Source of the DNA: Escherichia virus TH49
Sequence record: MT446417.1
Length of the DNA stretch: 41,043 bases
Reading direction: 5' to 3' (one strand)
In this document: one piece after another, positions 1 to 41,043 of the stretch
Numbering within the stretch: the stretch's first letter is position 1
How the letters are laid out: each line of letters begins with the position of its first letter
Notes under the pieces: model-generated
The model's database searches: none
The model's input: only the letters and a program-made list of their open reading frames with translations
What the model was told of the DNA's origin: nothing
Made by a program: the position numbers and the translations under genes

Positions 1-98
1 AACCATAGGCCACCCCTAACCGAAGGTTAAACCTTAGGTGGTACCGATGGGAAACCTTAGGTGATACTATATGTTGTGGTGAGGGTGACCTGAGGATA
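1..98. repeat. Left direct terminal repeat (DTR), at least 98 bp
   Basis: Positions 1..98 are identical to 40946..41043 by direct reading. T7-like genomes carry direct terminal repeats; the true repeat may be longer if the record was trimmed. Confidence 0.85.
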
Positions 99-210
99 CT
101 ATATGTTGATGTCCCTGTGTCCCTATCTGTTGGTACTCATTAAGTCACACCTTAGGACCTCCTGAGGTAACCACCTGAGGTTAGACCTGAGACCATATAC
201 CTTAGGTTAA
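30..210. repeat. Array of short CCTNAGG repeats (CCTTAGG / CCTGAGG) at the left end
   Basis: At least seven copies (about 32, 55, 89, 150, 161, 174, 200) within 180 bp. Analogous in position to the CCTAAAG repeats next to the T7 terminal repeat. Confidence 0.7.
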
Positions 211-259
211 CCGTGAGTCATCACTATAGGACTATTGGGTAGTCATTGTCAATTCATTC

Positions 260-282
260 TATTAGGGCCCACTATAGGGAGA
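260..282 (+). promoter_or_regulatory. Phage RNAP promoter (phiOL-like), tattagggcccactatagggaga, +1 near 277
   Basis: 22 of 23 match to the internal consensus derived from 13 copies in this window. Confidence 0.8.
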
Positions 283-37754: not shown

Positions 37755-38012
37755 ATGGACCTGATTAAGTTCCTCGAAATGTTAGACACTGAGATGGCTC
37801 AGCAGATGCTCATGGACCTGAAGAATCCCGAGAAGCGAACCCCCCAGCTCTACAACGCCATTGGTAAACTACTGGAGCGCCATAAGTTCCAAATCTCTAA
37901 GCTGACCCCTGACGTTAACATCTTGGGCGGACTGGCTGAGGGCCTGGAGGCTTACAACTCAAAGGTTGGCGCTGATGGTCTGACAGACGACGATAAGTTC
38001 ACCCTACAGTGA
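37755..38012 (+). CDS. gp18: Terminase small subunit / DNA maturation protein A (T7 gp18 homolog)
   Basis: 85 aa. Matches the recalled T7 gp18 (FLEMLDT.MAQ.ML.DL, PQLYNAI.KLL.RHKFQI.KL.PDV.ILGGLA, GLTDDD..TLQ). Confidence 0.9.
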   Translation: MDLIKFLEMLDTEMAQQMLMDLKNPEKRTPQLYNAIGKLLERHKFQISKLTPDVNILGGLAEGLEAYNSKVGADGLTDDDKFTLQ

Positions 38013-38108: not shown

Positions 38109-38555
38109 ATGCTTGAGTTCACAAAGAGAATCGTCCCGTACCTTGTGGCCATCATGGTGTTTGCCTTCGGGTGGCACTTGGGTTCGCAATCTACGGACGC
38201 TAAATGGAAGGAGGTAGTACAGAATGAGTACGTTAAGAAGCAAACGGCTAGAGCTGAAACTCAGAAAGCGATTGACGCAGTATCGGCTAAGTACCAAGCA
38301 GACCTTGAGGGGCTGGAGGGCAGCACTGATAGGATTATTGCTGATTTGCGTAGCGACAATAAGCGGCTGCGCGTCAGAGTCAAACCTACCAGTGTCGCCG
38401 CAGGACCAGACGGTAGATGCCTCGTTGATGGTTCCGTCGAACTACACGAAGCAACTTCTCGAAGTCTTATCGCAATAACCCAGAAGGCCGACCTCAAGGA
38501 GAAGGCCCTACAGGACACTATTCGTAAGCTGCAAGGGAAAGGAGGTGAACATTGA
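38109..38555 (+). CDS. gp18.5: Rz-like i-spanin (T7 gp18.5 homolog)
   Basis: 148 aa. N-terminal transmembrane segment and high identity to the recalled T7 gp18.5 ([60 protein letters not shown]). Confidence 0.9.
38224..38478 (+). CDS. gp18.7: Rz1-like o-spanin lipoprotein embedded in the +1 frame of Rz (T7 gp18.7 homolog)
   Basis: 84 aa. Lipobox and signal ([15 protein letters not shown]) identical to the recalled T7 gp18.7; the gene lies entirely inside the Rz gene. Confidence 0.88.
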   Translation: MSTLRSKRLELKLRKRLTQYRLSTKQTLRGWRAALIGLLLICVATISGCASESNLPVSPQDQTVDASLMVPSNYTKQLLEVLSQ

Positions 38556-40309
38556 GTAACTCTCAGCAAGCCAAGAACGCCTTAATCATTGCGCAACTGA
38601 AGGGTGACTTTGTCGCCTTTCTCTTCGTGCTCTGGAAGGCCCTGAACCTGCCGGAACCAACCAAGTGTCAAATCGACATGGCCAAGTGTCTGGCAGACCC
38701 CAAGAACAAGAAGTTTATCCTTCAGGCTTTCCGTGGTATCGGTAAGTCGTTCATCACGTGTGCGTTCGTAGTGTGGACCCTGTGGCGTGACCCTCAGTTA
38801 AAGATACTGATTGTCTCGGCATCAAAGGAACGTGCTGACGCTAACTCCATCTTCATCAAGAACATCATCGACTTGTTGCCTTTCCTGAGTGAGCTTAAGC
38901 CTCGCCCCGGTCAGCGTGACTCCGTGATTAGCTTTGATGTAGGCCCTGCCAAGCCTGACCACAGCCCGTCAGTTAAGTCTGTGGGTATTACGGGTCAGCT
39001 TACTGGTAGCCGTGCCGATATCATCATTGCGGATGACGTGGAGATTCCCGGTAACTCTGCAACCCAAGGTGCCCGAGAGAAACTCTGGACGTTGGTTCAG
39101 GAGTTCGCCGCACTGTTGAAACCTCTGCCGACTAGTCGTGTTATCTATCTGGGTACCCCTCAGACCGAGATGACGCTCTACAAGGAACTTGAGGACAACC
39201 GTGGGTACTCCACCATCATTTGGCCTGCGCAGTATCCTCGCTCCAAAGAGGAAGACCTGTACTATGGCGACCGTCTGGCTCCGATGCTCCGAAGTGAGTA
39301 CGATGAGGACAAAGAGGGTCTCGGTAGTCAACCTACTGACCCGGTTCGATTCGACTCCATGGACCTTCAGGAACGTGAGGTGGAATACGGCAAGGCTGGC
39401 TACACGCTCCAGTTCATGCTCAACCCGAACCTCAGTGACGCCGAGAAGTACCCGCTACGCCTCCGTGACGCTATCGTGTGCGGTCTACAGATGGACAAGG
39501 CCCCAATGCATTACCAGTGGTTGCCGAACCGTCAGAACCGCAATGAGGAGCTTCCTAACGTGGGTATGAAGGGTGACGAGATTTACTCCTTCCATACAGC
39601 CTCAAGTAACACTGGCGCATATCAGGGTAAGATTCTGGTCATTGACCCCAGTGGTCGCGGTAAGGATGAGACGGGCTGGTGCGTACTGTACACCCTCAAC
39701 GGTTACATCTACCTGATGGACGCTGGCGGTACTCGCGGTTACGAAGAGAAGTCCCTTGAGTTCCTCGCTAAGAAAGCCAAACAGTGGCAGGTGCAGACTG
39801 TGGTCTTCGAGAGTAACTTCGGTGACGGTATGTTCGGTAATGTATTCCAGCCTGTGCTCCTGAAGCATCACCCAGCGCAACTCGAAGAGATTCGTGCTCG
39901 TGGTATGAAAGAGGTCCGCATCTGCGATACCCTTGAGCCTGTACTGGCAAGTCACCGCTTGGTCATCCGTGATGAGGTTATCCGACAGGACTACCAGACG
40001 GCACGTGATGCAGACGGTAAGCACGCTCTGAAGTACAGCCTGTTCTACCAGATGACCCGTATGAGCCGTGAGAAGGGCGCTGTGGCACACGACGACCGAC
40101 TTGATGCATTAGCATTGGGTGTCGAGTTCCTACGCTCTACGATGCAGCAGGACGCTGTGAAGATAGAGGCTGAGGTACTTCAGGAGTTCTTGGAGCACCA
40201 CATGGAGAAGCCTCTGAGTAACATCTCCCAGTTCCGGGCCACCAGCAGCAACGGTGTGGACATCCGATGGGAAGACGATGGGGATGACACTATGTTCATC
40301 GCTTGGTAA
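38552..40309 (+). CDS. gp19: Terminase large subunit / DNA maturation protein B (T7 gp19 homolog)
   Basis: 585 aa; TTG start 5 nt after GGAGGT. Very high identity to the recalled T7 gp19 ([129 protein letters not shown]). Confidence 0.97.
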
Positions 40310-40389: not shown

Positions 40390-40412
40390 AATTAGGGCAC
40401 ACTATAGGGAGA
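40390..40412 (+). promoter_or_regulatory. Phage RNAP promoter (phiOR-like), exact consensus
   Basis: Perfect 23-mer between gene 19 and the right end, as in T7. Confidence 0.85.
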
Positions 40413-40553: not shown

Positions 40554-40703
40554 ATGCGCTTATTGTTAACCTTACTGCGCCATAGGACTACTTGGCGATT
40601 TCTGCTGGTACTTGCTGGTGCCCTTGGGGCTTCACTGGTTACTCAGCAGCAACTCAGTGGACTGGAGACTCTCATGTGCTCTCTACTCACTTGTAGCGAT
40701 TAG
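40554..40703 (+). CDS. Gene 19.5-like small membrane protein (49 aa)
   Basis: ATG with AGGAGG 7 nt upstream; hydrophobic product (RFLLVLAGALGASLV); same size and position as T7 gene 19.5. Found by reading; below the ORF-track cutoff. Confidence 0.5.
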   Translation: MRLLLTLLRHRTTWRFLLVLAGALGASLVTQQQLSGLETLMCSLLTCSD

Positions 40704-40788
40704 GGTCTTCCTGACGCGCTAGGGATTCCGTAGTGATGCTTATCAGCATACACCACTCCATCCCTCTACAGTCAATACTTAAAGTTAA

Positions 40789-40849
40789 CCTTAGGTGATT
40801 CGCTGGGTCTACCTACGGGTCTATGCAATGACCTGAGGACTACCTGAGG
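40789..40849. repeat. CCTNAGG short repeats near the right end (CCTTAGG, CCTGAGG x2)
   Basis: Copies at about 40789, 40832 and 40843, mirroring the left-end array. Confidence 0.6.
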
Positions 40850-40945
40850 TTACCTTTAAGAATATTGCATAAAGTTCTGAGTGTACATCTCACAGTTTAC
40901 ACTTTTGGTTATCCCCCCCCGGTACCCTCCCAGTTCACCCAAAGT

Positions 40946-41043
40946 AACCATAGGCCACCCCTAACCGAAGGTTAAACCTTAGGTGGTACCGATGGGAAAC
41001 CTTAGGTGATACTATATGTTGTGGTGAGGGTGACCTGAGGATA
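40946..41043. repeat. Right direct terminal repeat (DTR), at least 98 bp
   Basis: Identical to 1..98 by direct reading. Confidence 0.85.

What the first reader, a model, noticed from the sequence alone, without database searches (positions are those of the whole stretch)
30..210. Palindromic CCTNAGG repeats flank the terminal repeats at both genome ends
At least seven copies of CCTTAGG/CCTGAGG occur between 30 and 210, and three more between 40789 and 40849, partly inside and partly just outside the DTR. They are positional analogues of the CCTAAAG repeats of T7, which are implicated in concatemer processing and packaging, but the unit here is different and palindromic. They may be recognition sites for the terminase or for end-processing factors.
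Basis: seen in the sequence. Interest (0 to 1): 0.35.

Follow-up and report, generated by a model that had tools for sequence, protein, structure and literature searches.

The report
T7-type short repeats around genome ends

Summary
There are seven CCT[T/G]AGG copies at 32-206 and three at 40789-40849. That makes 10 unique copies in a 376-bp junction zone, against 0.3 expected from the rest of the genome (P~1e-12).

The window is a circularised assembly of a Przondovirus (K11-like T7 relative, identical to phage TH50). Its 98-bp end overlap is an internal slice of the real ~182-bp terminal repeat (TR). By homology to K11, Whistle and Rappa3, the TR runs 40888..40945 plus 1..124.

Relative to the true TR, three copies lie to its left, three inside it and four (plus one degenerate) to its right. 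T7's CCTAAAG repeats have the same three-zone layout.

Five other Studiervirinae lineages show this layout with their own heptamer: CCTAAAG or CCTAATG on both sides of the TR in four, and CCTATGG/CCTTGAG in one sampled only from the TR rightwards. Where both sides were sampled, all copies are on one strand.

The unit is only formally palindromic. Its centre is G or T in 141 of 151 copies and never C.

Function is untested. The best guess is a set of lineage-specific accessory binding sites for the packaging machinery, next to conserved cut and pause signals.

Verdict: a known kind of feature with a new unit sequence, of low-to-moderate interest.

The parts
40789..40795 (+). CCTTAGG, first copy left of the true terminal repeat (equivalent of T7's SRR array)
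   Evidence: invariant in 30/30 Przondovirus junctions
40832..40838 (+). CCTGAGG, second SRR-like copy
   Evidence: 30/30 conserved
40843..40849 (+). CCTGAGG, third SRR-like copy, 11 bp after the second
   Evidence: 30/30 conserved
40853..40860 (+). Degenerate copy CCTTTAAG; it opens the conserved block that precedes the left genome end
40775..40863 (.). Imperfect inverted repeat (arms 40775-40796 and 40842-40863, 22 nt, 86% complementary) that pairs SRR copy 1 with copy 3; candidate single-strand hairpin
   Evidence: ssDNA fold -16 kcal/mol, z = -3.3; z = -1.85 in a longer context
40852..40895 (+). Block conserved across genera immediately left of and including the left genome end (ACCTTTAAGAAT...TCTGAGTG...TCTCACAG; the end starts at 40888); likely core cleavage/recognition signal
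   Evidence: Matches the K11, Whistle, T7 and T3 left ends and their upstream sequence
40888..41043 (+). True terminal repeat, first 156 nt; it continues at 99-124. Total ~182 bp, present once in this assembly
   Evidence: Homology to K11 TR 1-180 / 41001-41181, Whistle 181 bp, Rappa3 181-182 bp, K5-2 177 bp; Przondovirus DTRs of 180-183 bp determined by long-read assembly with primer walking/Sanger where needed (PMC10438801)
1..124 (+). Right part of the true terminal repeat; 1-98 is an exact duplicate of 40946-41043 (assembly/circularisation overlap); the TR ends ...GTGTCCCT at 124
32..38 (+). CCTTAGG inside the TR (= 40977)
   Evidence: CCTTAGG in 22/30 relatives, otherwise CCTTGGG or CCTAGGG
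55..61 (+). CCTTAGG inside the TR (= 41000)
   Evidence: 23/30 relatives keep a CCTNAGG
89..95 (+). CCTGAGG inside the TR (= 41034); in most relatives this position is CCTTGGG
   Evidence: Only 5/30 relatives have CCTNAGG here
116..131 (+). TGTGTCCCTATCTGTT: right boundary of the TR plus ATCTGTT (125-131), the 'concatemer junction' element. I take ATCTGTT, from memory, to be the class II T7-RNAP pause/termination motif. Conserved in T7, T3, K11 and other genera
   Evidence: K11 annotation 'concatemeric junction' at 180-188; the natural T7 CJ described as a class II pauser/terminator with a seven-base conserved motif, sequence not quoted in the passages read
150..156 (+). CCTTAGG, first copy right of the TR (equivalent of T7's SRL array)
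161..167 (+). CCTGAGG, SRL-like copy 2
174..180 (+). CCTGAGG, SRL-like copy 3 (29/30 conserved)
186..192 (+). Degenerate copy CCTGAGA, conserved in this form in 27/30 relatives
200..206 (+). CCTTAGG, last SRL-like copy (CCTAAGG in some relatives)
37755..38012 (+). gp18, small terminase subunit (85 aa): candidate reader of the repeats
   Evidence: PF11123 DNA_Packaging_2, E = 3e-17; 73-78% identical to the T7-like and T3-like orthologues
38552..40309 (+). gp19, large terminase subunit
   Evidence: annotated as terminase large subunit in Whistle, Rappa3 and K11
40390..40412 (+). Phage RNAP promoter AATTAGGGCACACTATAGGGAGA, equivalent of K11 phiOR; transcription from here runs through the SRR, the TR and the CJ pause site
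   Evidence: Sequence; K11 annotation of phiOR
260..282 (+). Phage RNAP promoter, equivalent of K11 phiOL
   Evidence: Sequence; K11 annotation of phiOL

Best explanation
IDENTITY (well supported, ~0.9). The window is a circularly closed assembly of a K11-like T7-group phage (Przondovirus). The CCT[G/T]AGG heptamers are this genus's version of the short-repeat arrays that bracket the terminal repeat in T7-like phages; from memory, these are the 'SRL' and 'SRR' CCTAAAG arrays of Dunn & Studier 1983. In a replicating concatemer the order is: gene 19.5, three copies, a conserved pre-end block with the left-end cut site (TCTCACAG, 40888), the 182-bp TR with three looser copies, the right-end cut and RNAP pause element (GTGTCCCT|ATCTGTT, 124/125), four to five copies at 12-14-bp spacing, then phiOL.

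MECHANISM (inferred, ~0.4). The heptamers are directional, redundant, lineage-specific binding sites for a phage-encoded maturation factor. The most likely factor is the small terminase gp18 as an oligomer, possibly with gp19 and the RNA polymerase paused at ATCTGTT. The arrays would mark the concatemer junction and position the complex over the two conserved cut sites. The analogy is lambda's conserved cosN next to specificity-determining cosB repeats, or SPP1's pacL/pacR around pacC.

Shown: enrichment, layout, orientation, turnover of copies with retention of the motif, and matching unit identity on both sides of the TR within each lineage. Inferred: that a protein reads them, which protein it is, and that this helps packaging.
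For: - Enrichment: 10 copies in 376 bp vs 0.30 expected, P~1e-12.
- True ends: left-end and TR sequences align with K11, Whistle and Rappa3, whose TRs are annotated or experimentally determined.
- T7 has CCTAAAG in the same three zones.
- The anchor TGTGTCCCTATCTGTT retrieved 72 IMG/VR loci. 45 distinct Przondovirus arrays (IMG/VR loci plus the window, K11, Whistle and Rappa3) carry 0-5 exact copies (44 of 45 have at least 2) with unit spacing mostly 12-14 bp. The flanks extend the consensus to A-CCT-K-AGG-T, the spacers carry little information, and copy number changes by whole-unit indels.
- Matching units: in each of nine genomes from five lineages the same heptamer is enriched both in the 200 bp left and the 200 bp right of the TR (P from 4e-3 to 3e-22), with zero copies on the opposite strand: CCTKAGG (Przondovirus), CCTAAAG (T7-like, T3-like), CCTAATG (gh-1-like, Dickeya JA10). 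Local slippage does not explain matching units across a 150-240-bp TR; a shared reader does.
- The cut and pause elements themselves are conserved across genera while the heptamer differs, as expected for a core site plus a specificity array.
- The phage encodes a T7-type small terminase.
Against: - No binding or genetic data exist here.
- From memory, specific DNA binding by T7/T3 gp18 has not been shown, and T7 plasmid-packaging studies defined required regions without pinning function on the heptamers.
- One natural Przondovirus (L020) has no exact copy in its right-hand array, and others have only two. Orthologous copies decay to CCAGAGG, CCCGAGG or CCTTGGG. Individual copies are therefore dispensable.
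- The three left-hand copies are invariant, but so is the whole 40760-40905 stretch, so their conservation is not motif-specific.
- gp18 is 65-78% identical across lineages with different units, and the window's gp18 is closer to the T3-like protein, which reads CCTAAAG if it reads anything. The protein comparison gives no support.
- Gene conversion between arrays in concatemers could also homogenise units.
Confidence: 0.45

Rival explanations
1. Structural role in duplicating the terminal repeat. The left-hand copies are parts of an inverted repeat that extrudes as a hairpin on a displaced or nicked strand. This would prime or guide the synthesis that gives each packaged genome a second TR copy. 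From memory, this is the 'hairpin intermediate' proposed for T7 concatemer processing by Chung, Nardone & Hinkle 1990. On this reading the near-palindromic unit matters because direct repeats then also act as inverted repeats.
For: - Arms 40775-40796 and 40842-40863 are 86% complementary over 22 nt and pair copy 1 with copy 3.
- The ssDNA fold is -16 kcal/mol, z = -3.3, with 1 of 200 shuffles as good.
- T7 has a shorter inverted repeat (12 nt, 83%) in the same region, pairing TCCTAAGGTATA with TATACCTAAAGA.
- Most lineages fold somewhat better than shuffles there (z -1.6 to -2.4).
Against: - The right-hand array has no comparable hairpin, yet carries the most copies.
- In a 148-nt context the window's z-score is only -1.85, and the gh-1-like phages show none (z ~0).
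- T7, T3 and gh-1 units are not palindromic, so the property is not conserved.
- The region is invariant within the genus, so no compensatory changes can be counted.
Confidence: 0.2
2. Transcription-linked role. The arrays modulate RNA polymerase rather than terminase. They might slow or phase the phage RNAP approaching or leaving the ATCTGTT pause, or bind host RNAP or a nucleoid protein near the leftward A0-like promoter.
For: - The arrays sit between phiOR and the CJ pause and just downstream of it.
- A strong leftward sigma-70-like site (11/12) lies at 252->223, pointing into the right-hand array, as A0 does in T7 and T3.
- All copies share the transcription orientation.
Against: - No known pause or termination signal resembles the unit.
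- T7 and T3 have different promoter specificities but the same heptamer, so the unit does not track the RNAP.
- Nothing was tested directly.
Confidence: 0.1
3. No function. The heptamers are by-products of replication slippage or unequal recombination in non-coding DNA next to a recombinogenic terminal repeat, inherited from the common ancestor.
For: - Copy number varies from 0 to 5 by whole-unit indels, and individual copies decay.
- One natural genome lacks exact copies on the right side.
Against: - The arrays persist in six lineages of the subfamily (at least four genera identified by isolate match) despite unit change.
- The same unit sits on both sides of the TR with strict orientation wherever both sides were sampled.
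- The flanking bases are conserved while the spacers are not.
- The left-hand copies are invariant in 30/30.
Confidence: 0.12
4. The repeats flank a genuine 98-bp DTR whose boundaries are the window ends.
For: Window 1-98 is identical to 40946-41043.
Against: - The 98 bp correspond to positions 59-156 of the TR of K11 and Whistle.
- The canonical end sequences TCTCACAG... and ...GTGTCCCT lie outside the overlap, at 40888 and 124.
- The identical phage record TH50 reads straight through the window join for 1000 nt.
- Short-read assemblies of przondoviruses are reported to collapse or misplace the DTR.
- A 98-nt overlap equals k-1 for k = 99 (inference).
Confidence: 0.02
5. A cluster of type II restriction sites serving as a decoy or anti-restriction device. 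From memory, CCTNAGG is the Bsu36I/SauI/Eco81I recognition sequence.
For: The motif matches that recognition sequence.
Against: - A symmetric site would not show the observed 141:10 G/T versus A/C bias at the centre or the strict orientation.
- Sister lineages have non-palindromic units in the same places.
Confidence: 0.01

Closest known systems
Bacteriophage T7 short-repeat arrays SRL/SRR (CCTAAAG) flanking the 160-bp terminal repetition (Dunn & Studier 1983; names and citation from memory, layout verified here on NC_001604)
   Same: - Same genome type.
- Same conserved end sequences: TCTCACAG... and ...GTGTCCCT|ATCTGTT.
- Same three-zone layout: left of the TR, inside it, and right of it.
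- 7-bp unit, single orientation, ~13-bp spacing, non-coding position between gene 19.5 / phiOR and phiOL.
   Different: - The unit is CCT[G/T]AGG (extended ACCTKAGGT), not CCTAAAG.
- It has fewer copies: 4-5 right of the TR vs 8 exact copies in the 200 bp right of T7's TR (10 in the T7-like L015).
- The unit is formally palindromic.
- The TR is 182 bp rather than 160 bp.
Klebsiella phage K11 and other Przondovirus genomes (NC_011043, Whistle, Rappa3, K5-2, TH50)
   Same: Same repeats at the same positions. The right-end region is 94-100% identical. The window is 100% identical to TH50 over 2.6 kb spanning the junction.
   Different: Copy number and some individual copies differ. For example, K11 has CCTTGGG at the position of window copy 32, CCTAAGG as its last copy, and a ~200-bp insertion before phiOL. 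I found no paper in the held library that describes the CCTNAGG repeats.
Lambda cosB R-sites next to cosN, and SPP1 pacL/pacR around pacC (small-terminase recognition arrays; established knowledge, recalled from memory; a TerS review read bears on binding models only)
   Same: Several short repeated sites lie beside a cleavage site. The cut site is conserved while the array is lineage-specific.
   Different: No binding by the T7-type small terminase has been shown. T7-type ends are blunt with a duplicated TR, not cohesive or headful. That review cautions that TerS DNA-recognition models remain unsettled.

Membership tests
T7-group short-repeat arrays flanking the terminal repeat (SRL/SRR type) | Host genome is a T7-like (Studiervirinae) phage with the conserved end sequences and the concatemer-junction element | tested here: met
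   475 phage records match the right end, mostly Przondovirus. TCTCACAGTTTACAC at 40888 and TGTGTCCCTATCTGTT at 116-131 match K11, T7 and T3.
T7-group short-repeat arrays flanking the terminal repeat (SRL/SRR type) | Heptamer copies clustered immediately left and right of the true TR, with some inside it | tested here: met
   3 left, 3 inside and 4 right; P = 8e-5 and 1.5e-6 for the two flanks separately; overall P~1e-12.
T7-group short-repeat arrays flanking the terminal repeat (SRL/SRR type) | All copies in one orientation, at a spacing of roughly 12-14 bp within an array | tested here: met
   0 copies in the opposite orientation. Spacing mode is 12-13 bp in 45 arrays; centre base G/T in 141 of 151.
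T7-group short-repeat arrays flanking the terminal repeat (SRL/SRR type) | Unit sequence CCTAAAG (the T7/T3 unit in the strict sense) | tested here: not met
   The unit is CCTKAGG. Other genera also differ (CCTAATG; CCTATGG/CCTTGAG), so the unit sequence is lineage-specific and does not define the wider family.
T7-group short-repeat arrays flanking the terminal repeat (SRL/SRR type) | Role in concatemer processing or packaging | not testable with these tools
   No experimental data. A 2026 review says the mechanism of T3/T7 end formation is poorly understood.
Small-terminase recognition array (cosB / pacL-pacR type) | Multiple repeated sites adjacent to the terminase cut site | tested here: met
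   The nearest copies lie 39 bp left of the left-end cut (27 bp counting the degenerate copy) and 26 bp right of the right-end cut.
Small-terminase recognition array (cosB / pacL-pacR type) | Sequence-specific binding by the small terminase | not testable with these tools
   gp18 is present (PF11123). No solved homologue was found by sequence.
Small-terminase recognition array (cosB / pacL-pacR type) | Array sequence co-varies with the small terminase independently of overall phylogeny | tested here: inconclusive
   Only three unit types were compared. gp18 is 65-78% identical across them, and the window's gp18 is nearest the T3-like one, which has a different unit.
Genuine direct terminal repeat at the window ends | Repeat boundaries coincide with the physical genome ends of close relatives | tested here: not met
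   The 98-bp overlap equals TR positions 59-156. The ends of K11, Whistle and Rappa3 map to 40888 and ~124.

The most novel reading that the evidence does not exclude
The lineage-specific heptamers (skeleton CCTnAnG: CCTAAAG, CCTAATG, CCTKAGG) form a packaging-specificity code. A few residues of the small T7-type terminase gp18 would read this code, while the cut and pause elements stay universal. Unit type would then predict which T7-like phages can package each other's DNA, and would allow orthogonal phagemid packaging signals to be designed.
Probability: 0.25. Interest if true: 0.5.

Novelty: new member of a known kind. Interest (0 to 1): 0.2.

Why it matters
How T7-like phages recognise the concatemer junction and give each packaged genome a second terminal repeat is still unresolved. 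The short repeats are the most conspicuous unexplained cis-feature there.

Two results make a clean swap experiment possible. The unit changes together on both sides of the TR from lineage to lineage, while the cut and pause elements stay fixed. That could settle a 40-year-old question and yield orthogonal packaging signals for T7-based transducing particles.

For this window the practical point is simpler. Its 'DTR' is an assembly artefact, and the true ends can be placed by homology.

Tried and rejected
- **Whole-genome excess.** The excess of CCTNAGG over dinucleotide shuffles looked like a second signal. A 5th-order Markov expectation explains the body counts, so only the terminal cluster is real.
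- **Motif logo.** The information at the seven core positions is circular, because the units were picked by exact match. Only the flanks, the centre base and the orthologous-copy counts carry weight.
- **Hairpin across lineages.** z-scores are modest (-1.6 to -2.4; gh-1-like ~0) and the structures are not homologous, so I kept this as a rival only.
- **gp18 versus unit type.** There are too few independent lineages. Any lineage-specific residue 'co-varies', for example MAQ[R/Q/Y]ML[A/M/Q]DL.
- **Literature.** Ten searches found no paper in the held library describing CCTNAGG or CCTAAAG arrays or testing their function. The original T7/T3 papers (Dunn & Studier 1983; Chung & Hinkle 1990; Hashimoto & Fujisawa 1992) and three PMC ids I tried are not held. 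Statements about them rest on memory.
- **Primase-site and restriction-decoy readings.** I rejected both on sequence grounds: the repeated unit is not a T7 primase site, and the strict orientation bias argues against a symmetric restriction site.

Full report
**What is in the sequence.** Copies start at 32, 55, 89, 150, 161, 174 and 200, and at 40789, 40832 and 40843. Three more at 40977, 41000 and 41034 are duplicates, because window 1-98 is identical to 40946-41043. On the non-redundant 40,945-bp circle, 10 copies lie within 376 bp. The remaining 40.6 kb holds 32, giving 0.30 expected in the zone (Poisson P~1e-12). The next densest 400-bp window has 4. The apparent genome-wide excess over dinucleotide shuffles (45 vs 11.8) disappears against a 5th-order Markov expectation. 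Only the terminal cluster is a real signal. All ten terminal copies have G or T at the centre on the + strand.

**What the window is, and where its ends really are.** The right-end 644 nt match 475 phage records. [quoted passage not shown]

- K11, Whistle, Rappa3 and K5-2 carry annotated terminal repeats of 177-182 bp. For Whistle and its nine companion przondoviruses the 180-183-bp DTRs came from long-read assembly, with primer walking/Sanger sequencing where needed and read mapping as a check. The same paper reports that short-read assemblies often collapse the DTR or place it mid-contig (PMC10438801).
- Their left end, TCTCACAGTTTACACTTTTGG, is at window 40888. Their TR ends ...CTGTGTCCCT at window 124.
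- The true TR is therefore 40888..40945 plus 1..124, about 182 bp, and is present once in this assembly.
- The 98-bp end overlap is TR positions 59-156. TH50 reads straight through the window's join for 1000 nt.
That 98 equals k-1 for k = 99 is my inference.

**Anatomy of the junction.** In concatemer order the elements are:

- gene 19.5 (40554-40703);
- three heptamers (40789, 40832, 40843) and a degenerate CCTTTAAG (40853);
- a block ending in the left-end sequence, conserved even in T7, T3 and Dickeya JA10;
- the TR, with three looser copies;
- GTGTCCCT|ATCTGTT at 117-131, which K11's record labels 'concatemeric junction'. The natural T7 concatemer junction is a class II pause/termination signal for T7 RNA polymerase; identifying ATCTGTT as its conserved heptamer is from memory;
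- heptamers at 150, 161, 174, 186 (degenerate CCTGAGA) and 200;
- the phiOL-type promoter at about 260-282.

T7 has CCTAAAG in the same three zones.

**Comparative evidence.** The 16-mer TGTGTCCCTATCTGTT retrieved 72 IMG/VR loci.

- 45 distinct Przondovirus right-hand arrays (IMG/VR loci plus the window, K11, Whistle and Rappa3) hold 0-5 exact copies, and 44 of 45 hold at least two. Unit spacing is mostly 12-14 bp. The flanks extend the consensus to A-CCT-K-AGG-T, the spacers carry little information, and arrays differ by whole-unit indels.
- The centre base is G 94, T 47, A 10, C 0. The unit is directional, not a functional palindrome.
- Orthologous copies are not individually protected. Copies 150 and 161 decay to CCAGAGG, CCCGAGG or CCTTGAG in some genomes. 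TR-internal copy 89 is CCTTGGG in 21 of 30. It belongs to a CCTTNGG series that T7 and T3 also have (AACCTTCGGTTnACCTTGGG).
- The three left-hand copies are invariant in 30/30, but so is nearly all of 40760-40905.

**The same design in other lineages.** Other lineages keep the layout with their own unit: CCTAAAG in T7-like and T3-like; CCTAATG in Erwinia L1, Dickeya JA10 and Pseudomonas gh-1-like; CCTATGG/CCTTGAG in Yersinia AP10. L1 and AP10 could be examined only from the TR rightwards, because their contigs start at the left end. In nine genomes from five lineages, the same unit is separately enriched in the 200 bp left and the 200 bp right of the TR. No copy is on the other strand.

**How it probably works.** Two observations argue for a shared trans-acting reader rather than local slippage. 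Units match on both sides of a 150-240-bp TR, and orientation is strict. The cut and pause elements stay fixed across genera.

I therefore favour (~0.4) a core-plus-specificity arrangement. Conserved cleavage and pause sites would be flanked by redundant, lineage-specific binding sites for the maturation machinery. The most likely reader is the small terminase gp18 (37755-38012, PF11123), perhaps acting with gp19 and the RNA polymerase paused at ATCTGTT. The analogy is to lambda cosN/cosB or SPP1 pacC/pacL-pacR.

This is inference. No binding data exist, and no homologue of gp18 has a solved structure by sequence search. gp18 comparison across unit types is uninformative. One natural genome lacks exact copies in the right array. 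Models of how small terminases recognise DNA are themselves unsettled.

**Rivals.**

- The left-hand copies 1 and 3 are the cores of a 22-nt, 86% inverted repeat that folds as ssDNA with z = -3.3. T7 has a weaker counterpart. This fits the hairpin-intermediate idea for TR duplication, which I recall from memory. However, the signal is modest in longer contexts and absent in gh-1-like phages, and it cannot explain the right-hand array.
- Transcription-related roles cannot be excluded. A leftward sigma-70-like promoter at 252->223 parallels A0 of T7/T3. This remains a minority reading.
- A purely neutral origin also cannot be excluded, and is likewise a minority reading.
- The restriction-site reading is contradicted by the orientation bias.

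**Novelty and verdict.** The class of feature has been known in T7 since 1983 (from memory). The CCTKAGG version is present in hundreds of public Przondovirus genomes, including K11. I found no description of it in the searchable literature. A 2026 review still regards T3/T7 end formation as poorly understood.

The finding is real, correctly compared with T7, and wrongly framed with respect to the DTR. It is a new member of a known kind. Its interest is low to moderate, mainly as a ready-made swap experiment for an old question.

Noticed in passing
window 1-98 and 40946-41043: The exact 98-bp end overlap is an assembly/circularisation artefact lying inside the true ~182-bp terminal repeat. The window is a circular permutation of a genome identical, over the 2.6 kb spanning the junction, to 'Escherichia virus TH50' (MT446418). 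TH50 is an E. coli-hosted member of a mostly Klebsiella-phage genus.
   Followed up: yes
window 63-76 and 95-108: GATACTATATGTTG occurs twice inside the terminal repeat, each time directly after a CCTKAGG. Both copies are nearly invariant in 30 Przondovirus junctions, more so than heptamer copy 89. The element is absent from T7's TR, and its function is unknown.
   Followed up: partly
window 40760-40905: This non-coding stretch is almost invariant across 30 Przondovirus genomes. Its last ~45 bp (ACCTTTAAGAAT...TCTGAGTG...TCTCACAG) are recognisably conserved in T7, T3 and Dickeya JA10. It is a better candidate for the core left-end recognition/cleavage signal than the heptamers.
   Followed up: partly
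window 223-252, minus strand: A leftward sigma-70-like promoter (TTGACA-18-TATAGT, 11 of 12) points into the right-hand heptamer array and the TR. It is a positional analogue of the annotated 'A0 (leftward)' promoter of T7 and T3.
   Followed up: no
window 222-230, 270-278, 327-335: CACTATAGG occurs three times. The middle copy is the core of the phiOL-type phage promoter. The outer two (ATCACTATAGGACTA and ATCACTATAGGTCTA) are partial promoter-like sequences of unknown significance.
   Followed up: no
window 40913-40920: A C8 homopolymer lies near the left end of the TR. Its length varies from C5 to C8 among relatives, and T7 and T3 also have a C-run there. This may be real polymorphism or homopolymer sequencing error.
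   Followed up: no
K11 (L007 ~272-300), L039, L066; aligned to window ~203: Some relatives carry a ~20-bp insertion (GTGAGCTGACTGCTCACGAG, itself a small hairpin) that splits or duplicates the last right-hand heptamer.
   Followed up: no
L020 (IMGVR_UViG_2974501288_000001), right of the junction anchor: This natural Przondovirus has a right-hand array with no exact CCTNAGG, only CCTTGGG, CCTGAGA and CCTAACG. Exact copies on that side are therefore not indispensable, unless the record has errors.
   Followed up: no
window 37755-38012 (gp18): The T7-type small terminase (85 aa, PF11123) has no homologue of solved structure by sequence search. The alignment positions MAQ[R/Q/Y]ML[A/M/Q]DL differ between lineages with different heptamer units, but three lineages are too few to mean anything.
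   Followed up: partly
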